From: Halogeometricum borinquense DSM 11551
GTDB lineage: Archaea; Halobacteriota; Halobacteria; Halobacteriales; Haloferacaceae
Direction of reading: 5' to 3'
Length of the DNA: 32,000 nucleotides
Assembly (NCBI RefSeq): GCF_000172995.2
Contig: NC_014729.1
Coordinates: 1,170,001 to 1,202,000, forward strand
The notes beneath the pieces are model-generated. The model saw nothing but the letters and a program-made list of their open reading frames with translations, did not search any database and had not been told where the DNA came from. Both the position numbers and the translations under genes were made by a program. How positions within the stretch are numbered: the stretch's first letter is position 1; each line of letters starts with the position of its first letter. This document shows, piece after piece, positions 6,243-32,000 of this stretch.

Positions 6243-6459
6243 GAACAGGGGTAGCGACCGTCAATCCGGCGAGAAGTATCCAAAACAATAGATGTGTTTT
6301 TTCGTCATCATTGTCACTCGATCTCCTTCGAGTTGAGTATCGGCCGAGAGAGGCCATATTCGTGCCGATAAGAAAAACGGCGTAGCGATATTGTCATTGC
6401 AACTCCAGAAGACATACCGGGAACTTCTTTTGCTTTGGCACTACCAACTGTGACGACCG

Positions 6460-6684
6460 ATGGCATCGCAGGCACCCCTCAGTATTCAAATCGTGACAGA
6501 GATATCACGGCTAGAAGGTGTCGAACCGTTCGAACTCCCACCACTCGAAGACTGCGTAGACACCGAATCACTCGACACGTTGTTCGGGAGTTCGGACGCT
6601 CCGTTCCACGCAGGATCAGTTTCGTTTCACTACGCTGGCTACGAGGTTACAGTCTCGCATACGGGGGAGTTCGAGATAGCGTAA
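6460..6684 (+). CDS. HalOD1 (halobacterial output domain 1) family small protein
   Basis: 74 aa with the characteristic pattern EGVEPFELPPLEDCVDTESLDTLF...VSFHYAGYEVTV. Confidence 0.75.
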   Translation: MASQAPLSIQIVTEISRLEGVEPFELPPLEDCVDTESLDTLFGSSDAPFHAGSVSFHYAGYEVTVSHTGEFEIA

Positions 6685-6849
6685 CCAATTTGCGGGTGTA
6701 AGGTATCTCAACGACGACAGCACGATAGACGCCTTCTCGATCACTTTCGGGGTGCCATCGAACGTTTCGCTGGCGTGAGGTTCAGCACTGTTTCAACTTG
6801 ACTTCGCCACAGCGTTTTCCGCACGTTGAAATACCGGTGCAACGAGGAC

Positions 6850-7425
6850 ATGCCTGTACCCATGGACGGGGGACGCGGCACACAGCAGAGACGTGACCGG
6901 CAACGAGCGAAGCGGACATCGCCCGAATCGGATACCGGCCGGTTAGTTACCGTTTGCGGCCTTCCGGGTGTCGGCAAGACGCTGGTATCTGAACGGATCG
7001 CCGACAGACTCGACGGACGGTTGATTCGGACCGACGTGGTTCGAAAAGAACTGTTTCCCGAGCCTGAGTACACTTCGGCCGAACGGCAGTCAGTCTACGA
7101 TGAACTGTTCTCTCGCGGACGCGAGAGTATCCAGAACGGGACCCCTGCCGTCCTCGATGCGACCTTTCGGAAGCGTGAGGATCGAGACCGGGCGGCGTCG
7201 GTCGCTACGGCCGCGGACGTGCCGTTAGAGATCGTTCAGGTTGAGTGCGACACACAGGTCGTCCGCGAGCGGATCGCCGCCCGCGAAGACGACGAGAGTG
7301 ATGCTGACTTCGAGATCTACCTCAAGTTCCGCGACCGCTTCGAACATATCGAACGCGAACACGAGACGGTGGACAACTCGGGCGACATGGCCGAGACGCG
7401 GCGACAGATAGACGCAATGTTCTGA
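6850..7425 (+). CDS. P-loop kinase-like / AAA-family ATPase
   Basis: Walker A CGLPGVGKT and a compact nucleotide-kinase-like size. The track start at 6826 is TTG. The first ATG is 6850, with an alternative at 6862. Confidence 0.7.
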   Translation: MPVPMDGGRGTQQRRDRQRAKRTSPESDTGRLVTVCGLPGVGKTLVSERIADRLDGRLIRTDVVRKELFPEPEYTSAERQSVYDELFSRGRESIQNGTPAVLDATFRKREDRDRAASVATAADVPLEIVQVECDTQVVRERIAAREDDESDADFEIYLKFRDRFEHIEREHETVDNSGDMAETRRQIDAMF

Positions 7426-19593: not shown

Positions 19594-19643
19594 TACTGCT
19601 GAGACCGACGCGGCTATCCTTTCGGCGGACGCAAAGACAGCTG

Positions 19644-20207
19644 ATGGACCCGATACGAAACGACGAGCAACTGGCTCCACTCGTGGAAGAACACGGCGAA
19701 CTCGCCATCGAACCCGCCGATGACGAGTTCGAGCGCTTCGTCGTCTCGATTATCAACCAACAGCTCTCGACGCAATCTGCGGCGGCTATCAGAGAACGCC
19801 TGTTCGACCGGTTCGAGGTAACGCCGGAAGCGATGCTCAACGCCGACGAAACAGCGCTTCGGGATGTTGGACTCTCCTCACAGAAGATTTCGTACATCCA
19901 AAATGTAGCGACGGCGTTTCAAACGGACGACCTGACCCGTGCGGGAATGGCAGATCTAACCGACGAGGACGTTCTGATGCGACTGACAGAGATTCGCGGC
20001 GTCGGCGACTGGACCGCAAAGATGTATCTCATGTTCGTCCTCGGACGCGAGGACGTGTTCCCCGTCGAAGACCTCGGTATTCGGAAGGCGATGGCGGAAC
20101 TGTACCGGATGGACGAGAACGACCGGGCTGTGATGGTCAAACGCGCCGAGGCGTGGCGGCCGTACCGAAGCGTCGCGTCCCGGTACCTCTGGCGTGTCGT
20201 GGACTGA
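19644..20207 (+). CDS. DNA-3-methyladenine glycosylase II family (AlkA-like, HhH-GPD)
   Basis: Helix-hairpin-helix block LTEIRGVGDWTAKMYLMF followed by the catalytic-Asp region FPVEDLGIRKA. Confidence 0.8.
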   Translation: MDPIRNDEQLAPLVEEHGELAIEPADDEFERFVVSIINQQLSTQSAAAIRERLFDRFEVTPEAMLNADETALRDVGLSSQKISYIQNVATAFQTDDLTRAGMADLTDEDVLMRLTEIRGVGDWTAKMYLMFVLGREDVFPVEDLGIRKAMAELYRMDENDRAVMVKRAEAWRPYRSVASRYLWRVVD

Positions 20208-20295
20208 TCACGGCCAGAACACTCATACTCGAACGCCGAGAGTCGATACCGTGACGCATCTCCGTCACATTCCCCCTCGCTGCGACGCTCAACAA

Positions 20296-20332
20296 AAACT
20301 ATGAATAAACGGGCTAAGAGTTTTCATAGTTT
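20296..20332. promoter_or_regulatory. perfect 10-bp inverted repeat (candidate operator)
   Basis: AAACTATGAA (20296-20305) and TTCATAGTTT (20323-20332) are separated by 17 nt and lie 43-79 nt upstream of ATG 20375. Confidence 0.4.
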
Positions 20333-20374
20333 CTGAGGGAAACGTTGAAACGCCTCGCATCCGAGAATCCGGGT

Positions 20375-22354
20375 ATGGAGTTAGACGATATCAACACTAT
20401 CACGGTTCTCGGTGCAGGGAACATGGGTCACGGCATCGCCGAAGTTGCCGCTCTCGCCGGGTACCAAGTTAATCTGCGAGACATCAACGAGGAGTTTGTC
20501 CAGAACGGCTACGACCAGATCGAGTGGTCGCTCGGCAAACTCGCTGAGAAGGATCAGCTTTCCGACGAGGAGGCCAACGCCGCCCTCGAACGCGTGGCGA
20601 CGTACGTTGATCTCGCCGAGTCAGTTTCTGACGCCGACGTGGTCATCGAGGCCGTCCCCGAGAAGATGGACATCAAAAAGGACGTGTACACCGAGTTGGA
20701 GGCGGCCGCCCCCGACCACACCATCTTCGCGACGAACACATCCAGCCTCTCTATCAGCGAACTCGCGGACGTGACGGAGCGACCCGAGCAGTTCTGCGGG
20801 ATGCACTTTTTCAACCCACCCGTTCGGATGCAACTCGTCGAAGTCATCTCGGGTGCAGAGACCGCCGAGGAGACGATGGATGTCATCTCGGATCTTGCAG
20901 AGGCGATGGACAAGACGCCGGTCCGCGTCCACAAGGACAGCCCCGGTTTCATCGTGAACCGTATTCTCGTCCCCCTGATGAACGAAGCGGCGTGGGCCGT
21001 CGAATCCGGCGATACCACCATCGCGGAGGTTGACTCGACGGCGAAGTACGAAATCGGCCTGCCGATGGGGAGCTTCGAACTCGCAGATCAGGTGGGTATC
21101 GACGTGGGCTACCACGTCCTCCAGTATATGCACGAGGTGCTGGGCGATGCCTACGAACCATGTCCGCTCCTCGAAGAGAAAGTCGAGGAAGAGAAACTCG
21201 GCAAGAAGACGGGCAAGGGATTCTACGACTACGAGGATGGCGAGGGTGCGCAGGTTCCGTCCGATCAAACCAGCGAAGACGTTAGCCGTCGTCTGATGGC
21301 CGTGATGGCAAACGAAGTCGCCGGTCTCATCCAAAACGACGTGGCCGACGCCGACGCAATCGACCGCGCGGTGATGCTCGGCGGCGGGTTCCCCGACGGT
21401 CCCGCAAAGATGGCCGACGACGCGGGGCTGGAGACACTCGTGGAGACGCTCGACGAACTGCACGAAAAGACGGGTGCCGAGCGCTACGAGGCGGTTGACC
21501 TCCTCCGCGAACTCGCGGAATCCGGTGACCGCTTCCACGGGAGCGACGGCGGGGACGACGCCGACCCCTACGAGTTCGAGAACATCTCTGTCGAGATTCG
21601 TGATCGCGTGGGACACATCGAACTCGACCGTCCGCACCGGATGAACACCATCAGCTCCGACCTCGTGGACGACCTGTCGGGCGCTATCGACGCACTCGGC
21701 GCAGACGATGACGTGCGCGCGATTCTCCTCACCGGTGCCGGTGATCGTGCGTTCTCCGCCGGTGCGGACGTGCAGAGTATGGCTGGCGGCGCGGGCGACC
21801 CAACCGCCGGAGCGGAACTCTCGCGGAAGGGCCAGCGCACGTTCGGTAAGCTTGAGGAGTGCGACAAGCCCGTCATCGCCGCCATCGACGGTTACTGTCT
21901 CGGCGGCGGAATGGAACTCTCGATGTGTGCGGACCTCCGCATCGCAACGAAGCGTTCGGAGTTCGGCCAGCCCGAACACAATCTCGGTCTGATTCCCGGA
22001 TGGGGCGGTACCGTCCGCCTCCAGCGTATCGTCGGCACCGGCCGCGCGAAGGAGATTATCTTCACCGCCGACCGCTACGAGGCCGAGACGATGGCCGACT
22101 ACGGCTTCATCAACGAACTCGTAGAGAACGACGAGTTCGAAGAACAAGCCTTCGAGTACGCAAAGCAGTTCGCGCAGGGACCGCCCGTTGCCCAGCGGTA
22201 CACCAAGCGCGCCATGCACAACGGCTGGGAAGATACTGACGCCGGTCTCGAAGTCGAAGCGCAGTCATTCGGCCTTCTGTTCACGACAGACGACCTGATG
22301 GAGGGAATGACGGCGTTCATGGGCGACCGCGAACCCGACTTCAAGGGAGAGTAA
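20375..22354 (+). CDS. fused 3-hydroxyacyl-CoA dehydrogenase / enoyl-CoA hydratase
   Basis: N-terminal Rossmann motif ITVLGAGNMGHGIA and an HCDH core. The C-terminal crotonase fold carries FSAGADV and GYCLGGGMEL. The track start at 20345 is TTG, so ATG 20375 is preferred. Confidence 0.9.
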   Translation: MELDDINTITVLGAGNMGHGIAEVAALAGYQVNLRDINEEFVQNGYDQIEWSLGKLAEKDQLSDEEANAALERVATYVDLAESVSDADVVIEAVPEKMDIKKDVYTELEAAAPDHTIFATNTSSLSISELADVTERPEQFCGMHFFNPPVRMQLVEVISGAETAEETMDVISDLAEAMDKTPVRVHKDSPGFIVNRILVPLMNEAAWAVESGDTTIAEVDSTAKYEIGLPMGSFELADQVGIDVGYHVLQYMHEVLGDAYEPCPLLEEKVEEEKLGKKTGKGFYDYEDGEGAQVPSDQTSEDVSRRLMAVMANEVAGLIQNDVADADAIDRAVMLGGGFPDGPAKMADDAGLETLVETLDELHEKTGAERYEAVDLLRELAESGDRFHGSDGGDDADPYEFENISVEIRDRVGHIELDRPHRMNTISSDLVDDLSGAIDALGADDDVRAILLTGAGDRAFSAGADVQSMAGGAGDPTAGAELSRKGQRTFGKLEECDKPVIAAIDGYCLGGGMELSMCADLRIATKRSEFGQPEHNLGLIPGWGGTVRLQRIVGTGRAKEIIFTADRYEAETMADYGFINELVENDEFEEQAFEYAKQFAQGPPVAQRYTKRAMHNGWEDTDAGLEVEAQSFGLLFTTDDLMEGMTAFMGDREPDFKGE

Positions 22355-22389
22355 GAGACTCTCTCCCGAGGCCGGTTCGGAACGGAACG

Positions 22390-22397
22390 TTTAAACA
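22390..22397 (+). promoter_or_regulatory. TATA box candidate for tRNA-Glu
   Basis: TTTAAACA lies 27-34 nt upstream of the mature tRNA 5' end. Confidence 0.4.
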
Positions 22398-22423
22398 AAT
22401 AAGCCTACCACGATAGAATGCAG

Positions 22424-22498
<75 letters not shown>

Positions 22499-22509
22499 CT
22501 CCATTCTAC

Positions 22510-22673
22510 CGCCGTCTTGCGTTTTTGAGCCGTGAATAGAGCAATGATAGCCAATGTTTCAGGCCAAGTCGAAAACCAAGACTCGCTTACCCCGACGCCG
22601 TCTTGCGATTAGCGGTTTTGTCTCGCCCAGTCGATTCAAAGGACTGGCCAAATACGTGCGAACCGCAAGACGG
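22510..22673. repeat. three copies of a CCGTCTTGCG motif between tRNA-Glu and the integrase
   Basis: CGCCGTCTTGCG occurs at 22510-22521 and 22596-22607 as direct copies. An inverted copy CCGCAAGACGG lies at 22663-22673, just upstream of integrase ATG 22685. Confidence 0.5.
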
Positions 22674-22684
22674 AGGCACGTCTG

Positions 22685-23788
22685 ATGGACGAATTAGACG
22701 AACTCCCCGTCGTCACCGACGCATCGAGAGAGTACCTCAACCAGCGTCAACTGCTCGACTACCGGGCCGAGCGAGAAGCGTATCTCGAATGGCTCCTCAC
22801 GTTCGGAAAGAGACCGGACGAGGCGGTCGGGTACGCCCCGGGCACGGTGAAATCGGGTGCGTACCGGACGGACCGGTTCTACCGGTTCGTCTGGGACCAA
22901 GAGGGCGGGTACACGGCGAACGTCACGCACGATCACGCCGACGCGTGGATGAAGCATCTTGCACGCGGGGACACGGGCGCGACGAACAAGCGAAACTGCC
23001 AGAAAGCGGCCAAGCGGCTGTTCAAATGGCGACATCACGAGCACGGTCGCAGTGAATGGGATCCGGATATCACGTTCGCTGCCGACTCCAGTACGAACCC
23101 GCGGGACTACCTAACGCGCGAGGAGCGATCCGCGGTGCGCGAGGCAGCGCTCGAATACGGCTCCGTTCCAAATTACAAGAGCCTCACGCCGACGGAGCGA
23201 GACCGGTGGAAGCAGTATCTCGCCCAGCGATTCGAGAAACCGAAGTCGGAGGTCGGGCCCGACGACTGGGACCGCGCGAACGGGTGGAAGGTTCCGTCGC
23301 TAGTTTGGGCGAGTCTGGACGCGGGGCTTCGCCCTGTCGAAGTGAAGCGCTCGCAAGTCGGGTGGGTTGACACCGATAACGCGGTCCTCCGCATCCCGAA
23401 AGAGGAGAGCTCGAAAAATCGAGACCACTGGGTTGTCGGTCTCCAGTCCCGAACGGCCGAAGCGCTCGGCAACTGGCTCGAAGAGCGCGAGGCGTACCCG
23501 GAATACGACGATACGGAATCGATATGGCTGACTCGGAAGTCGAACCCGTATAACACGAAGACGCTTCGATACCTACTGCATCAACTCTGTGATATCGCCG
23601 ACATCGACACGACTCACCGGCAAATGAGTTGGTATACGATCCGCCACTCCGTCGGAACGTACATGACCCGTGAAGAGGATCTCGCGGCCACTCAGGCACA
23701 GCTCAGGCACAAGAGCGCCGAAACGACCATGAAGTACGATCAGGTACCGGTAGAAGATCGTCAAGATGCGTTAGACCGGATGGGATAG
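22685..23788 (+). CDS. tyrosine recombinase / phage-type integrase
   Basis: Catalytic-region blocks GLRPVEV (Arg I), WYTIRHSVGTY (H-x-x-R region) and TTMKYDQ (Tyr). The N-terminal SAM-like domain is typical of haloarchaeal provirus and plasmid integrases. Confidence 0.9.
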   Translation: MDELDELPVVTDASREYLNQRQLLDYRAEREAYLEWLLTFGKRPDEAVGYAPGTVKSGAYRTDRFYRFVWDQEGGYTANVTHDHADAWMKHLARGDTGATNKRNCQKAAKRLFKWRHHEHGRSEWDPDITFAADSSTNPRDYLTREERSAVREAALEYGSVPNYKSLTPTERDRWKQYLAQRFEKPKSEVGPDDWDRANGWKVPSLVWASLDAGLRPVEVKRSQVGWVDTDNAVLRIPKEESSKNRDHWVVGLQSRTAEALGNWLEEREAYPEYDDTESIWLTRKSNPYNTKTLRYLLHQLCDIADIDTTHRQMSWYTIRHSVGTYMTREEDLAATQAQLRHKSAETTMKYDQVPVEDRQDALDRMG

Positions 23789-23886
23789 ATAGGTACACAC
23801 CTATTTACAGGCTAATTCACTTTCCGACTCCTTTGAACAGATTACGACTATCAGGTCTCCCGCCGTACCGCCTCTGTCGATAATTC

Positions 23887-25005
23887 TCAGAGGATGTTCG
23901 CTGCTGAGCGCCGGAGTTCTTCAGTCGGGTGGACGTATCGAGCAGCTGACGACGTACTGTTTTGTCGTAACACTTCGGCAACGATTTTGAGGTCTTTGTG
24001 CTCCTCGTACGTGTACGTACCGAGGGTGTGTCTGAATGAGTACCAACAGAGCTTTCGGCCTCGTTCGGTGATTCCGGCTTCCTCGATGAGGTTATTGAGG
24101 AGGTAGTTGAGCGTTTGTGAGCTGTACGGGTTGCCTTTCCGTGTGAGCCACATGTGATCAGAGTCGTCGTATTTGCTGATGTTCGCTCGTTGCTCAATCC
24201 ACAACTCAAGCGGTCGAGTGGCTTTTTCCGGTAGAGCCTGGCTCCACTCTGAATTGTTTTTGACCGCGTGCTCTGCAGGGATGATGATCGTCTTTGAATC
24301 GGAATCATACCAGTGGACTTGCATCCGCTTGATGAGCGCTGGCCGCCATCCTGCGGCCTTTACTGTCCCGATGAGCGACGGAATTTTCCAATTCCTGTTG
24401 ACCCGGTCCCAATCTGCCGGTCTGACTTCGTCCTTAGGTTTGCCGAGTTCCTGTGCGAGGTACCCCCGCCAACGGTCCCGTTCGTCCGGGGAGAGGTTAT
24501 TGTATTTCGGGATGGACTTGTAGGTCAGCGATGTTTCCCAGAGCGAATTAACCTCGGCTTTGTTGAACGGGTCTGCTCCGTTCTCAGCCGGCTTGTCGTT
24601 GAAGCTGATTTCAGGTTCCCAGTCTGAACCGTGGAATCGGAACCAGTTGACTAGTGCGTTCGAAATCTTTCGTTTGCTCCCCTCAGAATAGCGCTCGCCA
24701 TCGCGCCGGCGGAACTCGTCAGTGGCGAGCGCTTCAATCACTTGATCCGCTTGTTTCGGTGAGATCTCTGTGGCGGGTTCATCGGTCTCCCAAACCCACC
24801 GAATAGCTTGTAGTACTCGTGAGACTCGCGTTCCGATTGACCGTTCCGCATATCCGATCTCTTTTCGCGGATTCTTTCCCTCTGAACGAAGATATTGCTC
24901 GAACTCCTCAAGGGTCGATTCGAAGATGACCTTTTGTCGCGTGCCCAACTGCGGGAACGACTCCCCTAAGTCATCTGCAGAATAACTACTCATGACTGCC
25001 ACCAT
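23887..25005 (-). CDS. tyrosine recombinase / phage-type integrase (paralogue of 22685..23788)
   Basis: Blocks GWRPALI, WYSFRHTLGTY and AARYVHP. It shares ERDRW..YLAQ...KPK.EV.P.DWDR and WLTRK.NPY blocks with the other integrase. The start is uncertain (ATG 25005 or 24993). The track start at 25170 is a TTG. Confidence 0.85.
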   Translation of the reverse strand: MVAVMSSYSADDLGESFPQLGTRQKVIFESTLEEFEQYLRSEGKNPRKEIGYAERSIGTRVSRVLQAIRWVWETDEPATEISPKQADQVIEALATDEFRRRDGERYSEGSKRKISNALVNWFRFHGSDWEPEISFNDKPAENGADPFNKAEVNSLWETSLTYKSIPKYNNLSPDERDRWRGYLAQELGKPKDEVRPADWDRVNRNWKIPSLIGTVKAAGWRPALIKRMQVHWYDSDSKTIIIPAEHAVKNNSEWSQALPEKATRPLELWIEQRANISKYDDSDHMWLTRKGNPYSSQTLNYLLNNLIEEAGITERGRKLCWYSFRHTLGTYTYEEHKDLKIVAEVLRQNSTSSAARYVHPTEELRRSAANIL

Positions 25006-25432
25006 CCAAGTCGAACTGCGAATCCCGAGGAGCGTTTCAACTGACTTGGAGACCACCTCCTCGGACCTGATTCCCCGAGGTGGTAATCGATTGCCGAGTG
25101 ATGCAACGTGATCATCGATCTGAACAGTTACAGTAACCACCCGTTTTAAAACATTAGTGTTGAGAATCAATCAATACCGACGGAGCTGAGTGAAAGAGGT
25201 TGAATACGGGGGTATGAGCTGCTAAAAGTCAAGATCGAGTCTCAGGGGGGCGTATTGAGAATCCACAGCTTTCGCCCCTGCTACGCAAGGGGCACCCCAT
25301 ATTTTGAGAGCGAACGAAATGAATTCTCCAAAACCCGGTACAAGCTTACGGATAGATGCGAAGCAATTTCCTCACCACAGATTGGGTTCCAGTTGAGTCC
25401 ATAGACAGAGCAATCGAGTACCTTGGATTTGA

Positions 25433-25492
25433 GTACGTCTCTATGTACATACTCACGTACATACCTGGGTACGTGAATGAGTACCTACTTAC
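25433..25492. repeat. five phased 12-nt units each beginning GTAC
   Basis: GTAC occurs at 25433, 25445, 25457, 25469 and 25481. GTACATAC is repeated at 25445 and 25457. An additional GAGTAC lies at 25416. Confidence 0.6.
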
Positions 25493-25616
25493 ACACCACC
25501 GGGAACGGGAACCTCAGGAGAATCTGATCAACGAGAAGATGACAGTGTAGTGCTCCCACACCGACCAAGCACAAGCTGTTGAAGTCACAGTACGGTGTAA
25601 CGCGATTCACCTGCTG

Positions 25617-27887
25617 CTACAGCACTTGACGAACTATTGAACCAATTCGCTCGATCACTGCAGTTTCGCTTTGGTCATCTCGCGCGGCTTCACAGAGGTC
25701 GTCGAAACACTTGGCGAGTGTGGCTACGATGTCCCGAGGGAGTGCTCTTGGGTCAACGACTGGAATGTTTTTGACATCCCCTGGCTCAACTTTTGGTAAT
25801 CCGTCTGCGAGTACCCGCTGCTGCTGAGCGATTCCAGAATCACCGAACAAGTAGTTCAGGTACGCCAGTAGCGCCTTCTCGCCTTGCCGGGTTATCTCCG
25901 GGTCCGGATAGATCCCGTAGTAACTGTTCAGATGTCTGGCGTCCGTCTCATTATCTATCGCGCGGAATCCTGATCGGCCTGTCACCGTCACGAGGATCGG
26001 CGCAGTATCACCGCGCTCTACTCGGTACCAGGGATTCCGGCCGTGTACTGTTGACCTCGTCGAGAGTGTTTCGTGGTCGGTCAGGCCATGACGCAGATAC
26101 TCAATTATTGGGGGTTCTGGATCCGTGGTCAGTGAGTCTTCTGCCCAGTCGGCTGACCCAGTGTCGTCGTTATAGGTCGTCTCGGGGACTCCCGGTACCT
26201 GGTCAAGGTAGTAGAGCAGCCACGTTGGCCGCCCGTGGCTATCGTAGTCATTCCAATCCTCGGGACGGATATCATACCCATCGACGTACCGTCGGCTTGG
26301 AACGATGCGTGACAGGCACTGCGGGTCGATTCCCCAGTCATCGACTTGATCCTGTGAGAGACAGAAGAAGTCGTTCTCACCGGTCTGCAACCCCCGGTGG
26401 ACGTCTGCGAGATCCGAGAGTGGCGGTAGGTCGGACCGCTCGTCAGAGGTCGGCTCGAACAAATTATCCCATCGTTCCTCTGGATTCAGCTCCGACTGCT
26501 CAATACAGTTGATTACTCCCCAGTCCGTCTCTCCACAAGAACCATGCCGAGCTGCCTCTAGTTTCGTCTGAACGCCAGGGTCATTGTCGACGCGAATGAA
26601 CCGTGTCGCCCCGACATCGGCTTCGTCATCGGTCGCTTCAAGGAGCACGACCATACTGGTTGTCTGTGCCGTTTCGAATTTTGACTCGTTCTTTGGGTTG
26701 TCCAAAAGAAGCGCCTTGATGTCGAATTCCCGGAGCAAGAATTGCTTGAGGGGCTCACCGAAACCCCGTGAGAGGAAGTGATGAGGCGTGAGGACGGCCG
26801 CCCGATCCCCTGTGTCGAGGAACCGTCCGAGATGGTAGTAGAAGTACGCGTACAGCGGGGACGTTTTCGGGATCTCTAATTCAGTTTGGTTCTCGGCTTG
26901 CGCGTTGAGTTTGTCTTTGTACGCCGAAGAGAGTGATTCGTGGCGCGTGTAGGGCGGGTTACAGAGGATCGCGTCCACGTCTTGGGTTAAGTCCGCTGGA
27001 TCCAACTCGAAGAAATCAGTTCTACGGGTCTCGTGCCGTTGCCCGGAGATCGTCTGTGCGACTCGTCCCATAAGCGCTGCAAGTGGACTACGATCAACCC
27101 CATTAACACGGCCTGGATCAGTGCTTATCTCCCAATCCGGATGGAACGGTGCCGACAGTTCGCCAGCACCCATCCCAGGGTCAAGCACGGTGTCGTCACC
27201 GCTGACAGCCCAGGTTCGCATCAACTCTGCAAGTTCCGTCGGTGTTCGGTGCTGTCCGAGAACCCGACGATGATTTCCGGCGATCAACGTCTCGTACAGA
27301 TGTCCGATATCCGTTGCTGGCTGGGTGGACTCCAGAAGCTGATCTCGTGCTTCTGTCACGGCGATGGTCTTAGCTTCGACGCCCCAGAGGATCTCATCTA
27401 ATGCACACGCAGTAAACGCCGAGTCACCGGTTTCCTCGTAAGCGATCTTGAACTGTTCCTGCGCGTTGCCTTCGAATTCCGGGAGGCCGCCGCGTCGATG
27501 GTACCATTCGTGGAGCGTGGCCTTCAACAGGAGTCCGAACGCCGCTTGGTTAGCGATGATCGAAGGTGTCGCGTCGTCACTGGGAACGTATCCGTGGAGG
27601 CCACACCACGATTCGACTGCTGCTTGAATTTTGGGTGACGGATCCGCGATTCCGGACTCAAGATCTGCAGCAGTTGCTTCCAATTGCTCGATGAGGTCGT
27701 CGCTGTAGGCCGACTCGTTCCTCAACCCAGTACTGACGCGCTCGCCTCTCGGCGGCTCTGGTTGTGACCGAGCAAGCGGGGACGTGGCGTCGATACTGGT
27801 TACCGGGATATCTGGTTCACAATCGACAGCCGCATAGGTGCAGTTGAGATGTGTTACTCGGCGAAATCTGCCCCGTTGAGTTGTCAT
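25617..27887 (-). CDS. N6-adenine DNA methyltransferase, gamma class (Eco57I/TaqI-like architecture)
   Basis: Motif X GQHRTPTELAELM, motif I VLDPGMGAGEL and motif IV NPPY. The C-terminal target-recognition-like region carries LADVHRGLQTGENDFF and LLAYLNY. About 210 aa at the N-terminus are unassigned. Confidence 0.9.
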   Translation of the reverse strand: MTTQRGRFRRVTHLNCTYAAVDCEPDIPVTSIDATSPLARSQPEPPRGERVSTGLRNESAYSDDLIEQLEATAADLESGIADPSPKIQAAVESWCGLHGYVPSDDATPSIIANQAAFGLLLKATLHEWYHRRGGLPEFEGNAQEQFKIAYEETGDSAFTACALDEILWGVEAKTIAVTEARDQLLESTQPATDIGHLYETLIAGNHRRVLGQHRTPTELAELMRTWAVSGDDTVLDPGMGAGELSAPFHPDWEISTDPGRVNGVDRSPLAALMGRVAQTISGQRHETRRTDFFELDPADLTQDVDAILCNPPYTRHESLSSAYKDKLNAQAENQTELEIPKTSPLYAYFYYHLGRFLDTGDRAAVLTPHHFLSRGFGEPLKQFLLREFDIKALLLDNPKNESKFETAQTTSMVVLLEATDDEADVGATRFIRVDNDPGVQTKLEAARHGSCGETDWGVINCIEQSELNPEERWDNLFEPTSDERSDLPPLSDLADVHRGLQTGENDFFCLSQDQVDDWGIDPQCLSRIVPSRRYVDGYDIRPEDWNDYDSHGRPTWLLYYLDQVPGVPETTYNDDTGSADWAEDSLTTDPEPPIIEYLRHGLTDHETLSTRSTVHGRNPWYRVERGDTAPILVTVTGRSGFRAIDNETDARHLNSYYGIYPDPEITRQGEKALLAYLNYLFGDSGIAQQQRVLADGLPKVEPGDVKNIPVVDPRALPRDIVATLAKCFDDLCEAARDDQSETAVIERIGSIVRQVL

Positions 27888-27916
27888 CGGAGTGCTTCGG
27901 CTTCATGAACCACCCC

Positions 27917-27926
27917 GGTTTAAAAC
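27917..27926 (-). promoter_or_regulatory. TATA box candidate for the methyltransferase
   Basis: The minus strand reads GTTTTAAACC, 30-39 nt upstream of ATG 27887. It is flanked by two CCCCGGTTT copies (27913-27921 and 27949-27957). Confidence 0.35.
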
Positions 27927-28095
27927 TCTGCCCTCAAACCCCCGAACCCCCCGGTTTCACCACTTCTAGAGCGAAACTTGACGCGAAACCACACCACATT
28001 CGCCGACGGAGCATCCGTCCTACGCAGGGCCGCAATGAAATGTTCGGAATCGCCCAACGGTGAATCGCCATCTTCTAACATCCATATGATGGGTT

Positions 28096-28185
28096 TTCTG
28101 GACACACCCCGTGGAAATTCAGAATATACTGCTTGAGATCGGCTGTCGGCCTCAAATAATTCTGGACACCCCCCGTCCCAATTCA
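28096..28185. repeat. two 26-nt imperfect direct repeats upstream of the methyltransferase
   Basis: TTCTGGACACACCCCGTGGAAATTCA (28096-28121) and TTCTGGACACCCCCCGTCCCAATTCA (28160-28185) match at 22 of 26 positions. Their starts are 64 nt apart. Confidence 0.55.
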
Positions 28186-28381
28186 AGTGGGTGTTCTGAT
28201 AGGATACAAGTATTGAGCGTCACGCGCTTGCAGGAAGAGTAACCTGCTTTACGACCTTCAAAGCGATATTATTCCATCTCCGTATCCAACAAAGCAGTGT
28301 CTCTCATACACTTCGCTGCAGGCACGATGCGCAGTTACGCCAGTCACTTATGAGGTGCGGTGTCCGAGGCAGCCGCTGGAG

Positions 28382-28696
28382 CTACGTTTCGATCAGGTGA
28401 CCGAATTCGTCGACGACGATCTCACCGTCGATGCCGTGTTCTTCGCACCAGTCCAGCGCTGCTTCCTCGTTGAGGGGTTTGATCTCCGCACCGCCAGTCG
28501 TGCCGCCCCCGTTACACGGCTTGGCGTATTTGGTTGCTGCACCGCCCTCTCCGTGGAGGAAGTACTCTCCCCCTGAGGTCTTGTATAGCGTTTCGATGAG
28601 GTAGTAGAAGTCACCTCGATCCGTGTTTGGGGCATGTTGGGCGATCTGTTCAGCTCGATCCGTGTCGTACAGTTTCCGGTCGATGACGCGCTGCAT
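28382..28696 (-). CDS. conserved hypothetical protein (104 aa)
   Basis: Start set at ATG 28696 (MQRVIDRKLYDTDRAE...). The pattern DFYY..ETLYKTSGGEYFLHGEGGA...I.PL..EEA..W resembles a small protein family I recall from bacterial and phage mobile elements but cannot name. Confidence 0.6.
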   Translation of the reverse strand: MQRVIDRKLYDTDRAEQIAQHAPNTDRGDFYYLIETLYKTSGGEYFLHGEGGAATKYAKPCNGGGTTGGAEIKPLNEEAALDWCEEHGIDGEIVVDEFGHLIET

Positions 28697-28786
28697 TGCA
28701 AACCGGCAAAACCGCCAGTGACATTTAAAGGCTTGCCGCAGAGATCCGATTCTCGACCGATTCAGGCCCACAGACACCAGAATTCA

Positions 28787-28821
28787 GACTGACAGCATGA
28801 CTTCCCGACTGACAGCACGAC
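28787..28821. repeat. tandem 15-nt repeats GACTGACAGCA(T/C)GAC
   Basis: Copies at 28787-28801 and 28807-28821 match at 14 of 15 positions with a 20-nt period. They lie 91-125 nt upstream of ATG 28696. Confidence 0.5.
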
Positions 28822-28979
28822 CATATCGCACCTAGTGTTAGATTACCGGCTATTTGGGCGTGTGAAGTGCTGCGAACCACCCAGACTACCGCGCGCGGGC
28901 CGGCTGGCACTGACTGAATCTGCAATGATTTCTTTGTAAGTCAGGTACGGACCTTGACTCCAGCCACAAGCCGACAAAA

Positions 28980-31900
28980 CTATTCTTCTGACCTAGGACC
29001 AACGCTGAAGGAGTCCGGTGCACAGGGCAGTTGGTTGTGTTGACACCACTGGCAATGCTCGTCAGCGCTGTACCGGTTGAACGAGAATTCCGAAATACGG
29101 GTCATGGACTCCGTCACGTCGTCCGTGACTGCTTCTAGGTCAGCATCGCTGAACGTCCGCGTTTCGACTTTCGGCCCGATTTCGCCAACGTACGCGTACC
29201 CAGCGCGCGTCACTGGCTCGTCGTACAGGTCACAGCACGCCAACAGATAGATCGGGAGTTGCTTATCGTCCTCCAGGTCTCGGTGGCGCTCGGTGGCCTT
29301 GTAGTCGATGACGAGGAGCCCATCGTCCGGCGTCCGGTAGACTGCGTCAATATAGCCGACGAGTTCGTGCCCATCAATATCGAGTTCGAACTCCCGCTCC
29401 GCGTCGATGATCTCGCAATTGGGGAGCTCTAACTCGAAGTACCGGTCGATGCACTCCTTCGCCGCCGTGAGTGCATCTTCAGCGCGGCGGTGACTGGCGA
29501 GACGCTCGCAGATCTCGTACCAGTCCCCACGGCGTTTCACGCCTTGCTTCGCGGCTTGTTCTGCGGTGTCGTGGAACAGCAATCCGATTTCACGTTGTGA
29601 TACACCGCCCCCGGAATCGCTTCTGACTGTGGTCTCCTGATAGTCGGGGAATGCGTTGACCACGTAGTCCAGGTAGTGACTCCGTGGGCATTCTTCGTAG
29701 GCAGCCAGTGACGTGTAGCTGTGCGAAAGCGATGGTGACGGTGTCGACGGGTCGGTCAGCGACGCAACCTGGAGTGTCTCCCGCTCAGCTCTCGGGGAGA
29801 GCTCTCCGTTGAGGGTGGCTGTTGCAAGGTCTAGCACGCGGTCGCGCGCCGCCGCGACTGCGAGTTCTTCCCCGGCGTGATTGACGGTCCCGCCAACGTG
29901 CCCGACTGTCTCGGTGGCCAGTGTGTCCGTCCAGTCTACCGCCTCTCTCGGGAGACAGTCTTGAACGTCGGCCCAGAGGGGGAGCTGTCCTCGCTCCGGT
30001 TGCCATGGGATTCGGGACGGGAGAATTTCGTCAACGGATTCTGAAACGGGGTGTACGTCCGTAGCATCGTCGTCTTCGCTGCCGCCCTGGAGGACGAGGA
30101 CATCTTCGGCGCGCGTGATGCCGACGTGGAACACGCGACGGGTTTCACGGGCGTCACGCTCGACGAAGTCCTCGGCAAACGCCGCCTCTGCGCCGTCTGA
30201 AAGGCTGGTTTCGAGCGCGTCGTAGGTGCGTGAACTCGGTGCCCACTCGCCCGCTGTGACTTGCGGGATGAGGACGACTGGGAAGTCAAGGCCCTTGCTC
30301 TTGTGGATAGTCATCACGTTGACCGCGTCGTCGGCGACATCCGGCTGACTCGTCGGGGACGAGCCGCTCTCGTCGAACAGAGAGTCGTAGTGTTCGAGCG
30401 AGTCGATGAACTCCGGGGTGAGCGGTGGTTGAACAGCGCTGTCTCCGTACTGTTCGATGACATCCTCCAGCTGGGCGAGATCCCGACGTTCCTGCTCGCT
30501 GAGATACCACTCGATATTCGTGACGTCTGTGAGCTCGCGGTACAGATGACTGAGCGACGCTGAATCTCGGATAGCGAGGAGTTCCGTGACGTGTTTACGG
30601 GCCTCCGCGACGCGGTCTGGCTCCTCGAACTCGTCGAGTGGCGTCTCGCGGAGCGTGTCCACGAGCGGGTCATCGCCCGCGTTGAGCTTGCGGAGGTCTG
30701 TATCGCAGAGCCGGTACCGCATCAGGAGGACGCGATTCCAGCTCACCTCGTCTTCGGGGCGTGCGAGTGCCTTTAGGTAGGCGGTCACGGTGCCGACACC
30801 AACGGATTCCGTGGCCAGATCCCCTGCAACCTGGTACGGGATGCCAGCGTCTTCGAATTCCTCGATGACTGGTGTCGCGTGGTCGTTTTTCCGGACGAGT
30901 AACGCGATGTCGCCCGGGTCGTACGCCTCATCGAAACTCTCTGCTGCCCCGCTCAGCAAGTTCTGCACGACGGTACGAAGCTGAGAAGCACCGTCCGCAT
31001 CGTCCTCATCCGACAGCTCGACGGTAGCGATGGTGTCCCCATCGTACTCGGGTTCGTCGACGCGCTTCAGTGTCTTGTGACGTTCCCGGTGATCGAGTTT
31101 CTGAATCGCCTCGTTCGCCAAGTCCAGGATCGGCTGCCGAGAGCGGAAATTCTCCTCTAAGGGTTCGTCGGAGAGTGCCGCGAATGCGCGGTCGAGTTCA
31201 TCAGTGATGTTGGCGACGTGCGCGCCGCGCCACTCGTAGATCGCCTGATCGTCGTCACCCACGACGAACAGGTTGTCGTCAGTGACGAGTGACTTGACGA
31301 GGTCGAACTGCAGGCGGTCGGTGTCCTGAAACTCGTCACAGAACACGTAGTCCCACCGAGCAGCGATTTCCTCCCCGACCGGCGACTCCATCAGCTCGGC
31401 CGCCTCTACAACTAGACCGTCGAAGTCGATGAGATTCCGCTCATCGAGTTCCCGCTCGTACGCGGCGTATCCGGCCGTCAGGTCACGGGCCGTCAGACAG
31501 TCCGAGAGGAACGAGTCGAGATGATCCGTGAGCTCAAGATCAAGGTCACCAGGGATTCCTTTCGGCGCACCGTTCGCGTACCCACCGAGTAGATACTTCG
31601 GGAGCTTGTACGCGTTGTCCGGCAGGTCCCGGTCGCCCGCCTCGTGGGCTTCAAACGCCGCTTCTAGCGCATCGCAAAGATCCACCAAGCGGTCGAGGAA
31701 ATCGCGTACACTGGCCTCCATTCCGTCCATCCCCAACACATCACGTTCTTCAACGAGGTCAGCACGGACGTCTGGGAGCGAGTCCAGCACGCTCGACACG
31801 GACCGGCCGCCCAGATGGTCACTGGCAATCGCCTCGACGCGCTCCGAGAGGTCGGCGAGTTCGTAGACACGGTCAGCAGGACCGAGGAACGCGTCGATAT

Positions 31901-32000
31901 CGTCGGGCGTGATGCCGCTGCGTTTCATCGATCCGATGAAGTTGAGCAACTTCGATGCGGCCCCTGACGCGTACCCATCAGAGCCGTACACGTTGGGTTT
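28980..32000 (-). CDS. UvrD/REP-type SF1 helicase fused to a Cas4/AddB-like Fe-S PD-(D/E)XK nuclease, 5'-partial
   Basis: Helicase motifs are II DEFQD, III VGDDDQAIYEWRGA, IV NFRSRQ, V TIHKSKGLDFPVV and VI VGITRAED. The C-terminal nuclease carries GYIDAV, VIDYK and QLPIY, with Cys768 plus C980-x2-C983-x6-C990 in track numbering. The Walker A motif is absent, and the frame is open to the window edge (the track start at 31991 is a GTG). Confidence 0.9.
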   Translation of the reverse strand, partial: KPNVYGSDGYASGAASKLLNFIGSMKRSGITPDDIDAFLGPADRVYELADLSERVEAIASDHLGGRSVSSVLDSLPDVRADLVEERDVLGMDGMEASVRDFLDRLVDLCDALEAAFEAHEAGDRDLPDNAYKLPKYLLGGYANGAPKGIPGDLDLELTDHLDSFLSDCLTARDLTAGYAAYERELDERNLIDFDGLVVEAAELMESPVGEEIAARWDYVFCDEFQDTDRLQFDLVKSLVTDDNLFVVGDDDQAIYEWRGAHVANITDELDRAFAALSDEPLEENFRSRQPILDLANEAIQKLDHRERHKTLKRVDEPEYDGDTIATVELSDEDDADGASQLRTVVQNLLSGAAESFDEAYDPGDIALLVRKNDHATPVIEEFEDAGIPYQVAGDLATESVGVGTVTAYLKALARPEDEVSWNRVLLMRYRLCDTDLRKLNAGDDPLVDTLRETPLDEFEEPDRVAEARKHVTELLAIRDSASLSHLYRELTDVTNIEWYLSEQERRDLAQLEDVIEQYGDSAVQPPLTPEFIDSLEHYDSLFDESGSSPTSQPDVADDAVNVMTIHKSKGLDFPVVLIPQVTAGEWAPSSRTYDALETSLSDGAEAAFAEDFVERDARETRRVFHVGITRAEDVLVLQGGSEDDDATDVHPVSESVDEILPSRIPWQPERGQLPLWADVQDCLPREAVDWTDTLATETVGHVGGTVNHAGEELAVAAARDRVLDLATATLNGELSPRAERETLQVASLTDPSTPSPSLSHSYTSLAAYEECPRSHYLDYVVNAFPDYQETTVRSDSGGGVSQREIGLLFHDTAEQAAKQGVKRRGDWYEICERLASHRRAEDALTAAKECIDRYFELELPNCEIIDAEREFELDIDGHELVGYIDAVYRTPDDGLLVIDYKATERHRDLEDDKQLPIYLLACCDLYDEPVTRAGYAYVGEIGPKVETRTFSDADLEAVTDDVTESMTRISEFSFNRYSADEHCQWCQHNQLPCAPDSFSVGPRSEE

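What the first reader, a model, noticed from the sequence alone, without database searches (positions are those of the whole stretch)
25617..32000. Methyltransferase + small conserved protein + UvrD-helicase/Cas4-like nuclease: candidate uncharacterised defence (R-M-like) module
Three co-oriented minus-strand genes sit on the AT-richer island. The first is a >=1003-aa SF1 helicase with a C-terminal Fe-S PD-(D/E)XK nuclease. The second is a 104-aa protein of unknown function. The third is a 756-aa gamma-class N6-adenine methyltransferase with an Eco57I/TaqI-like specificity region. Within the window I see no HsdR/Res/Mrr-type endonuclease, PglZ, BrxC, DrmA/B, OLD/GajA or other partner that would place it in a named system. 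A self-marking methylase next to a processive helicase-nuclease follows restriction-like immunity logic (compare DISARM, type ISP, Nhi, Gabija GajB). I cannot match this exact combination to any described system. The genes are separated by 283- and 494-nt spacers that each carry their own direct repeats, so they may be separately regulated rather than one operon.
Basis: partly seen in the sequence, partly recalled or inferred. Interest (0 to 1): 0.8.

Follow-up and report, generated by a model that had tools for sequence, protein, structure and literature searches.

The report
Argonaute-operon helicase-nuclease beside separate methylase cassette
The three genes are real but do not form one restriction-like system: the helicase-nuclease is the last gene of a known Argonaute defence operon that runs off the window, and the small protein and the methylase form their own recurrent, self-promoted cassette at the end of a tRNA-integrated island.

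Summary
All three genes and their domains are confirmed. The same locus in a public assembly is 100% identical to the window. There the helicase-nuclease (1152 aa) is the last gene of a tightly packed five-gene operon. The order is long-A pAgo, PLD protein (AgaP-like), 686-aa protein with degenerate helicase motifs, 301-aa Cas4-like Fe-S nuclease, then the UvrD/PD-(D/E)XK helicase-nuclease. The pAgo-PLD pair is the published APAP system; the helicase trio is an unstudied accessory that resembles AddAB. In 11 loci found through the helicase, the trio is always complete, pAgo/PLD or remnants are adjacent in 6, and the small gene plus methylase follow in only 1. The 104-aa gene and the methylase form a separate module. 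Seventeen of 19 haloarchaeal loci with a conserved repeat element upstream of the small gene have this methylase family just downstream, against 1 of 27 without the element. Each gene has its own TATA-like box. The window copy is a mosaic of three blocks next to two integrases and tRNA-Glu. The methylase's nearest relatives (83-85%) end a different cluster (Mre11-like, SMC-like, NurA, HerA, PLD). A looser methylation-linked coupling is therefore not excluded.

The parts
28980..32000 (-). C-terminal 1006 codons of a 1152-aa UvrD-type SF1 helicase with a C-terminal Fe-S PD-(D/E)XK nuclease. It is the last gene of the operon pAgo, AgaP-like PLD, 686 aa, Cas4-like 301 aa, helicase. The gene would start at window-equivalent position 32438.
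   Evidence: Pfam UvrD-helicase/UvrD_C/PDDEXK_1. Full gene and upstream genes in L004/L005, which is 100% identical to the window. Invariant Cys and nuclease residues. Best PDB sequence matches are PcrA/UvrD, AdnB and AddA.
28299..28829 (-). The 'small104 cassette'. This ~530-bp block is conserved as a unit across islands whose flanks differ. It holds the upstream repeat element, the promoter, the 104-aa gene and 86 nt of 3' sequence.
   Evidence: Homology to L007, L034 and L171 resumes at L004 positions 9860-9869 and stops at 10392-10398, with non-homologous DNA on both sides. Blastn and alignment of the flanks.
28737..28829 (-). Conserved non-coding element upstream of the small gene. It has two direct repeats, GTCGTGCTGTCAGTC and GTCATGCTGTCAGTC, at 28807-28821 and 28787-28801. 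It is operator-like.
   Evidence: The repeats. The 17-mer TGGTCGTGCTGTCAGTC occurs exactly once per locus, 111-128 nt upstream of the ATG, in 26 fetched loci. Alignment of 19 loci shows no covariation-supported RNA fold. No Rfam match. The element co-occurs with a downstream MTase in 17 of 19 loci, against 1 of 27 without it.
28724..28729 (-). TATA-like box (TTTAAA) 28-33 nt upstream of the small-gene ATG. This implies the gene has its own promoter and a leaderless or near-leaderless mRNA.
   Evidence: Read directly from the sequence. A conserved TTTATA/TTTAAA sits at the same position in 19 loci. Promoter function is inferred from general knowledge of haloarchaeal promoters.
28382..28696 (-). 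104-aa acidic protein ('small104'). It belongs to a large uncharacterised family found in haloarchaeal islands and in phages.
   Evidence: 99 haloarchaeal clusters. 3369 clusters at 50% identity library-wide. No Pfam, PADLOC, NCBIfam or PHROG family. AF2 pLDDT 94, a beta-sheet plus two helices. No PDB fold match, and only uncharacterised phage proteins in BFVD. Relatives are fused to RHH, HTH_3 and Ros/MucR domains.
27888..28188 (-). Conserved upstream region of the MTase. It carries a 26-nt direct repeat (28096-28121 and 28160-28185) and a TATA-like TTTTAAA at 27919-27925.
   Evidence: 86-89% nucleotide identity to the MTase loci of L169, L174 and L175, starting at window positions 28112-28188 depending on the locus. 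Alignment. Repeats.
25617..27887 (-). 756-aa stand-alone gamma-class N6-adenine DNA methyltransferase. It has an N-terminal helical domain, the MTase domain and an Eco57I_C/TaqI_C-type target-recognition domain. It has no nuclease domain.
   Evidence: Pfam and PADLOC MTase_II. Precomputed M_Eco57I_C. AF2 model pLDDT 80, residues 1-56 disordered. Best fold matches are the monomeric MTases M.BseCI and CamA, with TM 0.65-0.72 normalised to the target.
25356..25550 (+). 64-aa ORF convergent with the MTase; function unknown.
   Evidence: Called as a gene in public assemblies. No PADLOC match.
23887..25005 (-). Tyrosine recombinase (372 aa).
   Evidence: PF00589 on the called gene. Coordinates mapped from L004.
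22685..23788 (+). Tyrosine recombinase (367 aa) next to tRNA-Glu. Relatives lie at the same island edge in L170 and L067.
   Evidence: PF00589. ORF. tblastn.
22424..22499 (+). tRNA-Glu(TTC); the island boundary and likely integration site.
   Evidence: ARAGORN. Housekeeping genes lie on the other side.

Best explanation
The region is the tRNA-proximal end of a mosaic genomic island integrated at tRNA-Glu. It holds three blocks that were inherited separately and are promoted separately.

Block 1 is the 3' end of a five-gene operon. The genes are a long-A pAgo, an AgaP-like PLD nuclease, a 686-aa protein with degenerate helicase motifs, a Cas4-like Fe-S nuclease, and a UvrD helicase fused to an Fe-S PD-(D/E)XK nuclease. 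The pAgo-PLD pair is the published APAP system, which restricts plasmids and a virus. I infer that the last three proteins form an AddAB/AdnAB-like DNA-end-processing motor. It would unwind and degrade broken or linear invader DNA and supply single-stranded fragments to pAgo as guides. RecBCD and AddAB are reported to do this for bacterial pAgos.

Block 2 is the small104 cassette: a repeat element, a promoter and the 104-aa gene. Block 3 is the MTase with its own 300-nt upstream region. Blocks 2 and 3 together are one recurrent methylation module. The MTase is a stand-alone m6A enzyme. I infer that the small protein is its controller acting through the tandem-repeat element, in the manner of a C protein.

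What is shown: gene order, overlaps, domains, co-occurrence statistics, mosaic breakpoints and promoter-like boxes. What is inferred: complex formation, guide generation, the regulatory role of small104, and whether methylation matters to the neighbouring nucleases. The module is not required by the pAgo/helicase operon.
For: Operon structure. The gaps between genes are 63, 5, -4 and -4 nt, then 283 and 494 nt.

pAgo. The PADLOC pAgo match has E 7e-190. The best PDB matches are CpAgo and CbAgo, with GLDV / GE / HRDG / YADK aligned.

PLD protein. PLDc_2 with an HTK...GSAN motif. APAP is described and tested in PMC11442185, which notes an unstudied neighbouring helicase. UvrD/PD-(D/E)XK, Cas4 and PLD proteins were reported as enriched in pAgo operons in PMC6299218.

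Trio. The three genes are present and syntenic in all 11 helicase-anchored haloarchaeal loci. pAgo/PLD or their remnants are adjacent in 6 of them. The Cas4-like protein has C17 and C281-x2-C284-x5-C290 plus D...DYK. The 686-aa protein has degenerate Walker motifs and weak hits to UvrD1 and AddB.

Methylation module. Element, small104 and MTase go together in 17 of 19 loci, against 1 of 27 without the element. Most loci have a spacing of 89-112 nt. Truncated MTase remnants remain after small104 in L028 and L031.

Mosaicism. Homology to H. limi runs from pAgo to the helicase stop, breaks, covers only the 530-bp small104 block, then breaks again. The MTase block is 86-89% identical to loci with a different upstream cluster.

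Small-protein family. Relatives are fused to three different DNA-binding domains.
Against: The AddB-like reading of the 686-aa protein rests on weak matches. The PDB profile hits have E 0.0065-0.024, and hhalign against the helicase profile gives probability 1.2% with only one local motif aligned. I could not model its structure.

No transcript data were available. The promoters are inferred from TATA-like boxes.

small104 has no recognisable DNA-binding fold, so a direct operator-binding role is uncertain.

The MTase family is found next to DNA-end-processing clusters far more often than a fully independent module would predict. All 5 MTase-anchored loci show this, and at least 4 of them also have an Aq_aa27 PLD protein or its remnant. 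Much of the synteny may also reflect shared descent of one island family rather than independent events.
Confidence: 0.6

Rival explanations
1. The MTase marks self DNA. The neighbouring machinery (a PLD nuclease plus a processive DNA-end-processing motor) destroys unmethylated DNA. Together they would be one methylation-dependent, MADS- or DISARM-like system. It would come in an AddAB-like/pAgo variant, as here, and a Mre11/SMC/NurA/HerA variant. small104 would be its controller.
For: All 5 MTase-anchored loci have a DNA-end-processing cluster upstream in the same orientation. In L169, L174 and L175 it is Mre11-like, SMC-like 903 aa, NurA, DUF8166, HerA and a 762-763-aa Aq_aa27 PLD protein. 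In L170 and L171 it is the helicase trio; L171 also has the PLD gene and L170 a PLD remnant beyond the MTase. The trio lies upstream of small104 and the MTase in the window, L007, L034, L040, L052, L053 and L171. The MTase slot keeps a family member even when its sequence is only 40-54% identical and the flanks are 85-99% identical. PADLOC gives domain-level hits to mad2 (MTase), mad3 (SMC-like) and mad8 (HerA).
Against: Ten of 11 helicase-anchored loci have no small104 or MTase, and no other MTase lies next to the trio where I checked. APAP from N. pellirubrum works as a two-gene system in a heterologous host (PMC11442185). In N. gregoryi the MTase is reduced to a 58-codon remnant while the five upstream genes keep full length. 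The blocks have separate promoters and mosaic breakpoints between them. No mad1, mad4, mad5, mad6 or mad7 homologues were found even at E<=1.
Confidence: 0.2
2. small104 plus the MTase is the mobile element's own counter-defence cargo. The orphan methylase would pre-protect the element or host DNA from other restriction systems. The small acidic protein would be an anti-restriction or regulatory accessory. It sits next to the integrases because it belongs to the element backbone, not to the defence cargo.
For: The cassette lies at the integrase/tRNA end of the island in the window, and the MTase holds the same position in L169, L170 and L171. small104 relatives sit in the lysin-integrase accessory-gene ('moron') slot of temperate Lactobacillus phages and among the early genes of a Methanomicrobiales virus. 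Fifty-four IMG/VR viral contigs carry relatives. Family members are acidic even in non-halophiles, with pI 4.5-5.3. The MTase fold is closest to stand-alone or orphan MTases (M.BseCI, CamA).
Against: There is no similarity to known anti-restriction proteins. Fusions to DNA-binding domains point to regulation rather than DNA mimicry. In several loci the MTase is present without any integrase in the fetched flank.
Confidence: 0.2

Closest known systems
APAP system (long-A pAgo + AgaP PLD protein) of haloarchaea, Cheng et al. 2024, mLife, PMC11442185
   Same: A long-A pAgo with its catalytic residues aligned to CpAgo is followed 63 nt later by an N-terminal-PLD protein with an HxK motif. The host is a haloarchaeon. 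The paper itself notes a helicase gene next to some ago-agaP operons.
   Different: Here three further genes are fused into the operon (686 aa, Cas4-like, UvrD-nuclease). They are untested. In this PLD protein, GSAN lies 16 residues after HTK, not about 50 as described for NpAgaP. The pAgo and PLD genes lie outside the window.
AddAB / AdnAB / RecBCD helicase-nuclease complexes
   Same: A UvrD-family motor is fused to a C-terminal PD-(D/E)XK nuclease. A second Cas4/AddB-type Fe-S nuclease and a partner with degenerate ATPase motifs are encoded alongside. AddA and AdnB are among the PDB sequence matches.
   Different: The AddB-like part would be split into two genes. The motor subunit itself carries the four-Cys cluster. 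From memory, AddA lacks it. Similarity of the 686-aa protein to AddB is weak. No Chi-like recognition is known. The host is an archaeon and the complex is encoded inside a pAgo operon.
MADS (methylation-associated defence system), Maestri et al. 2024; preprint 10.1101/2023.03.30.534895
   Same: A multigene locus combines an N6-adenine MTase with ATPases and nucleases. Relatives of the window's MTase end clusters that contain SMC-like and HerA-like ATPases, which hit the mad3 and mad8 profiles.
   Different: The hits are generic domain matches, weaker than the matches to MTase_II, LmuB and HerA. No mad1 or mad4-7 homologues were found. No kinase or specificity subunit is present. The window itself has only the MTase.
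Controller (C) protein plus operator of Type II restriction-modification systems
   Same: A small gene sits immediately upstream of an R-M enzyme gene. It has a conserved tandem repeat upstream of its own promoter and travels as a unit with the enzyme gene.
   Different: small104 has no helix-turn-helix. Its fold is a six-strand sheet plus two helices. It precedes a methylase, not an endonuclease. No binding data exist.
Gabija GajB
   Same: The best PADLOC hits for the helicase are GajB profiles (E 2e-41), because of the shared UvrD core.
   Different: No GajA (OLD/TOPRIM) partner is present. The solved GajB chains are ~495 aa with no added nuclease domain, while this protein carries a C-terminal nuclease.
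M.BseCI and CamA (stand-alone gamma-class adenine MTases)
   Same: They are the best structural matches over the MTase and target-recognition domains (Foldseek E 4e-19; TM 0.65-0.72 normalised to the target).
   Different: Sequence identity is 13-19%. The window protein has an extra ~230-residue N-terminal region (a disordered 1-56, then a helical domain). Many relatives carry a further ~145-residue N-terminal domain.

Membership tests
APAP (pAgo + AgaP) | Long-A pAgo with an intact DEDX catalytic tetrad | tested here: met
   The 892-aa orthologue in L007 is 99% identical to the H. borinquense C-terminal part. It aligns to CpAgo with GLDV, GE, HRDG and YADK conserved. The PADLOC pAgo match has E 7e-190. 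The gene lies outside the window.
APAP (pAgo + AgaP) | Adjacent co-oriented PLD-family gene with a short intergenic gap and an HxK catalytic motif | tested here: met
   The gap is 63 nt. PLDc_2 has E 1.8e-7. H118-T-K120 and G136-S-A-N139 are present. The spacing of GSxN differs from that described for NpAgaP.
AddAB/AdnAB-type helicase-nuclease | SF1 UvrD-like motor subunit with a C-terminal PD-(D/E)XK nuclease | tested here: met
   Pfam domains. Invariant Walker A GTGKT, DEFQD and the D-x13-D-Y-K nuclease motif. AddA and AdnB are among the PDB matches.
AddAB/AdnAB-type helicase-nuclease | Second subunit with an inactive helicase-like body and a Fe-S nuclease | tested here: inconclusive
   The Fe-S nuclease is present as a separate 301-aa gene. 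The 686-aa protein has degenerate Walker motifs. It gives only weak matches: UvrD1 E 0.0065, AddB E 0.024, hhalign probability 1.2%.
AddAB/AdnAB-type helicase-nuclease | Stable complex that resects double-strand DNA ends | not testable with these tools
   This needs biochemistry. Only the translational coupling (4-nt overlaps) and the strict three-gene synteny in 11 of 11 loci argue for a complex.
Gabija | GajA (ATPase-TOPRIM/OLD nuclease) encoded next to GajB | tested here: not met
   The flanking genes are the Cas4-like nuclease, the 686-aa protein, the PLD protein and pAgo. None gives a GajA hit.
MADS | mad6, mad7 and mad8 present (mandatory in the authors' model), together with mad2-5 | tested here: not met
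   In the window only the MTase gives a mad2 hit. In related loci only mad3- and mad8-level hits occur. No mad1, mad4, mad5, mad6 or mad7 hits appear at E<=1. The criteria are from the preprint.
Classical Type II restriction-modification system | Cognate restriction endonuclease gene adjacent to the MTase | tested here: not met
   The neighbours are the 104-aa gene, a 64-aa ORF and two integrases. Neither small protein matches a PADLOC family.
Type IIG / IIL bifunctional enzyme (Eco57I, MmeI, BpuSI type) | N-terminal PD-(D/E)XK endonuclease domain fused to the MTase and target-recognition domain | tested here: not met
   In the AF2 model, residues 1-56 are disordered and 63-227 are all-helical. 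The top fold matches are the stand-alone MTases M.BseCI and CamA. BpuSI and MmeI match less well.
Gamma-class N6-adenine DNA methyltransferase | Motif order X (GxxxTP), I (DPxxGxG), IV (NPPY), followed by a C-terminal target-recognition domain | tested here: met
   GQHRTP, DPGMGAG and NPPY appear in that order. Pfam N6_Mtase/Eco57I. M_Eco57I_C.
DISARM | DrmA helicase + DrmB (DUF1998) + DrmC (PLD) or DrmD/E, together with an MTase | tested here: not met
   No DrmA or DrmB is present in the locus. The PLD protein gives only a marginal DrmC hit, E 0.02. A DEAD/DUF1998 (MZB) protein occurs only in the related locus L170.
R-M controller (C) protein | Small helix-turn-helix protein that binds repeats upstream of its own gene | tested here: not met
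   The model shows six strands and two helices with no HTH. There is no Pfam HTH hit. Binding cannot be tested here. The tandem repeats do exist.

The most novel reading that the evidence does not exclude
Haloarchaea may carry an undescribed family of methylation-linked defence islands. In this reading, an Eco57I-family m6A methylase is controlled by a new small protein and its tandem-repeat operator, and it provides self-marking for an Aq_aa27-type PLD nuclease working with an interchangeable DNA-end-resection machine. That machine would be either an AddAB-like trio, with or without pAgo, or a Mre11/SMC/NurA/HerA set.
Probability: 0.2. Interest if true: 0.8.

Novelty: new variant of a known kind. 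Interest (0 to 1): 0.5.

Why it matters
To my knowledge, archaea are generally thought to lack RecBCD/AddAB. A conserved, horizontally spread AddAB-like trio welded onto a catalytically active pAgo-PLD operon offers a direct way to ask how archaeal pAgos obtain guides and finish off invader DNA. The only experimental paper on this system left the neighbouring helicase untested.

The small protein belongs to a family of more than 3000 sequence clusters, found in haloarchaeal islands and in phages, with no database family and no known fold relative. Its strict link to an operator-like element and a methylase gives a first functional handle on it.

The repeated placement of this methylase family after two different DNA-end-processing clusters, most of them with an Aq_aa27 PLD protein, is a concrete and testable hint of methylation-dependent immunity in haloarchaea.

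Tried and rejected
Structured RNA in the spacers. Rfam found nothing at E<=1. RNAalifold on 19 upstream regions gave -8 kcal/mol and no compensatory pairs. A DNA-level regulatory element is more likely.

MADS membership. The mad2, mad3 and mad8 hits looked promising. They are weaker than the generic MTase_II, LmuB and HerA hits. No other mad gene was found at E<=1. Rejected as membership and kept as an analogy.

Gabija. The GajB hits reflect the shared UvrD core, and there is no GajA.

Type IIG enzyme. Rejected on the structure model.

small104 function by fold or family. PHROGs, Pfam, PADLOC and NCBIfam gave nothing. Foldseek against PDB had a best E of 0.34 (Pur-alpha-like, not credible). 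BFVD returned only uncharacterised phage proteins.

'X207' as a separate gene after small104. It is the N-terminal domain of the long-form MTase, or a truncated remnant of it in L031.

Second att site. No copy of the tRNA-Glu 3' end lies inside 22380-32000. The far island boundary is beyond the window and could not be fetched.

Profile-profile proof that the 686-aa protein is a helicase homologue. It failed, with hhalign probability 1.2%.

The co-occurrence counts are therefore small samples and are not corrected for phylogeny.

Organism name. The window is 100% identical to GCA_000337855.1 contig AOHT01000010.1. I believe this is Halogeometricum borinquense, from memory only. The nearest tool-named relative is Halogeometricum limi.

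Full report
OBSERVATION

The MTase is at 25617-27887 (756 aa). The 104-aa gene is at 28382-28696. The helicase-nuclease starts beyond the window and ends at 28980.

Pfam, PADLOC and NCBIfam confirm Eco57I/N6_Mtase for the MTase. They confirm UvrD-helicase + UvrD_C + PDDEXK_1 for the helicase (best PADLOC profile GajB; weak Cas4). The small protein matches nothing. The gamma-class motif order is visible in the translation: GQHRTP, DPGMGAG, NPPY. The four-cysteine cluster and the D...D-Y-K nuclease motif are invariant in 11 helicase homologues.

The spacers are 283 and 494 nt, and each holds a direct repeat. The low-GC tract covers the integrases, the MTase and the small gene. It does not cover the helicase gene.

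WHAT LIES BEYOND THE WINDOW

Exact-protein look-ups placed the MTase and the small gene on public contigs. One of these, GCA_000337855.1 contig AOHT01000010.1 (locus L005), is 100% identical to window 18382-32000. There the helicase is 1152 aa and is the fifth gene of a compact array:

- a Piwi protein (895 aa), then a 63-nt gap
- a 706-aa PLD protein, then a 5-nt gap
- a 686-aa protein, overlapping the next gene by 4 nt
- a 301-aa PDDEXK_1 protein, overlapping the next gene by 4 nt
- the helicase-nuclease

The Piwi protein is a pAgo (PADLOC E 7e-190). Its full-length orthologue aligns to the active long-A CpAgo with the GLDV, GE, HRDG and YADK positions kept. The PLD protein has HTK...GSAN. 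This pAgo-PLD pair is the APAP system. It was shown experimentally, using the Natrinema pellirubrum genes in Haloarcula hispanica, to restrict plasmids and an ssDNA virus. The authors remark only that a helicase gene neighbours some operons (PMC11442185). Earlier comparative work listed UvrD/PD-(D/E)XK, Cas4 and PLD proteins among pAgo-operon genes (PMC6299218).

THE HELICASE'S REAL PARTNERS

The helicase family is 67-91% identical across many haloarchaeal genera and occurs on plasmids as well. This fits horizontal spread.

I examined 11 loci found through the helicase alone: L007-L015, L172 and L173. The order 686-aa gene, Cas4-like gene, helicase is present in every one. pAgo plus PLD is adjacent in four of them: upstream in L007, L008 and L172, and downstream in L012. 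PLD remnants are present in two more, L010 and L173. Only L007 (Halogeometricum limi) has the small gene and an MTase downstream. Pfam on the genes flanking the trio in the other loci found no methylase.

The 301-aa protein has the C...C-x2-C-x5-C cluster and a D...DYK motif. The 686-aa protein has degenerate Walker A and B motifs. It gives weak profile hits to UvrD1, AddB and AdnA over one region. Profile-profile comparison with the helicase aligns only the '...IAV..R......GIP' segment.

I therefore read the trio as AddAB/AdnAB-like, with the AddB-like part split into two genes. The evidence for the inactive-helicase body is weak, and I flag it as such.

THE SMALL PROTEIN AND THE METHYLASE ARE A PAIR

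The small protein has 99 haloarchaeal clusters at 57-96% identity. Library-wide it has 3369 clusters at 50% identity. Its relatives include 54 IMG/VR viral contigs. They include temperate Lactobacillus phages, where the gene sits between the lysin and integrase genes. They also include a Methanomicrobiales virus.

The AF2 model is confident (pLDDT 94). It has no PDB fold relative and matches only uncharacterised phage proteins in BFVD. Some relatives are fused to RHH, Xre-type HTH or Ros/MucR DNA-binding domains. This points to a role in transcription control.

In haloarchaea, one subfamily carries a non-coding element upstream of the gene. The 17-mer TGGTCGTGCTGTCAGTC occurs exactly once per locus, 111-128 nt before the ATG, in 26 fetched loci. 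A TATA-like box lies about 30 nt before the ATG. There is no Rfam hit and no covariation-supported fold.

After removing duplicate loci, 17 of the 19 element-bearing loci with enough downstream sequence have a member of this MTase family within 500 nt. In most of them the distance is 89-112 nt. Of the 27 loci without the element, only one has the MTase, and its upstream region is cut off by the contig end. Two of the 17 hits are only truncated MTase remnants: N. gregoryi (C-terminal piece) and Haloferacaceae DSL9 (N-terminal piece).

The MTase model matches the stand-alone enzymes M.BseCI and CamA best. It has no nuclease domain. No endonuclease gene is adjacent.

MOSAIC STRUCTURE

Against H. 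limi, nucleotide identity is 80-98% in 500-nt windows from pAgo to the helicase stop. It then disappears for about 165 nt. It returns only for a ~530-bp block (window 28299-28829: element, promoter, small gene and 86 nt), and then disappears again.

The MTase, with up to about 300 nt of upstream sequence (window 25432-25673 to 28112-28188, depending on the locus), is 86-89% identical to loci in Salinilacihabitans rarus, Halorubrum sp. DTA46 and a metagenome. That upstream stretch contains the 26-nt repeats and a TTTTAAA box.

The window therefore joins three blocks with separate histories. They are followed by a 64-aa ORF, two tyrosine recombinases and tRNA-Glu(TTC), which marks the island boundary. 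Related islands likewise end at a tRNA just past the MTase: tRNA-Val, tRNA-Cys and tRNA-Glu(CTC).

The three closest MTase relatives all sit at the end of a different cluster. Its genes are Mre11-like phosphoesterase, a 903-aa SMC-like ATPase, NurA, DUF8166, HerA and a 762-763-aa Aq_aa27/PLD protein related to AgaP. N. gregoryi has the same cluster followed by the small gene and the MTase remnant.

Counting the two other MTase-anchored loci (L170 and L171, which have the helicase trio), all five have a DNA-end-processing machine upstream. L171 also has the PLD gene, and L170 has a PLD remnant beyond the MTase.

PADLOC reports mad2, mad3 and mad8 hits for the MTase, the SMC-like protein and the HerA protein. 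These are generic domain matches, and no other MADS gene is found. The MADS criteria are from the preprint.

A looser methylation-linked coupling therefore remains possible (about 0.2). The following argue against an obligatory R-M-like unit:

- the frequent absence of the MTase next to the trio
- the two-gene sufficiency of APAP
- the decayed MTase beside an intact-looking cluster in N. gregoryi
- the separate promoters and the mosaic breakpoints

VERDICT

The helicase-nuclease belongs to a known kind of system, an APAP pAgo operon, in an uncharacterised extended form. The small gene and the MTase are a distinct, recurrent and apparently undescribed cassette. Nothing here is categorically new, but two testable questions come out of it. 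One is whether an AddAB-like accessory helps an archaeal pAgo. The other is what the small-protein/operator/methylase module does. Interest is about 0.5.

Noticed in passing
L169:1-12265, L174:1-12274, L175:1-12265, L028:1829-13046: A recurrent haloarchaeal cluster: Mre11-like phosphoesterase, 903-aa SMC-like ATPase (PADLOC LmuB/mad3/PbeC-like), NurA, DUF8166, HerA, and a 757-763-aa Aq_aa27/PLD protein related to AgaP. It ends with this MTase family, or with an MTase remnant in N. gregoryi. It matches no complete PADLOC system and looks like an undescribed defence candidate.
   Followed up: partly
L034:15197-19341: An array of 15 tRNA genes lies a few kb downstream of the MTase in a metagenomic island that otherwise matches the window's pAgo, helicase, small-gene and MTase arrangement. 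Such arrays are typical of viruses or large mobile elements.
   Followed up: no
L010:13618-15009, L040:6891-8273, L052:6099-7481, L031:8303-9694; L171:7880-9142, L053:133-1392, L032:5259-6518: Two further genes recur between the helicase and the small gene in related islands. One is a 463-aa ATPase_2/DUF234 protein (PADLOC candidate PDC-S27, E 2.5e-57). The other is a 420-aa HEAT-repeat protein on the opposite strand. Both are absent from the window.
   Followed up: partly
L025:1-20312 (Halorubrum lacusprofundi plasmid CP001367); L026 and L027: A different small104 subfamily, without the upstream element, sits in a dense defence island. The island carries a 1432-aa MmeI-like enzyme, a SNF2 helicase, a TBP paralogue, GmrSD, TIR proteins and Pycsar-like genes. 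In two metagenomic versions the MmeI-like and SNF2 genes are broken into many fragments.
   Followed up: no
L105:10001-11413: Three tandem paralogues of the small protein (37-40% identical to the window copy) lie on a human-gut metagenome contig. Some library members are tandem-duplicated within one protein (189-196 aa).
   Followed up: no
L166:4001-4468, L167:4001-4441: In temperate Lactobacillus phages JNU_P7 and LFP01 the small104 domain carries a C-terminal extension that looks like a ribbon-helix-helix. The gene lies in the accessory-gene ('moron') slot between endolysin and integrase.
   Followed up: partly
L170:3790-6330: In Natrinema sp. H-ect1 the helicase-nuclease is followed by an 846-aa DEAD/Helicase_C/MZB (DUF1998) protein (PADLOC BrxHI/DruE/SngC-like). 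After it comes about 3.6 kb with no called gene before the MTase.
   Followed up: no
window:5351-5424 and 5000-7000: A tRNA-Thr gene lies next to a second dip in GC content (about 55%). This may be another small integrated element.
   Followed up: no
window:23887-25005 and 22685-23788: Two convergent tyrosine recombinase genes sit side by side at the tRNA-Glu boundary. This suggests two nested or tandem integrative elements rather than one.
   Followed up: no
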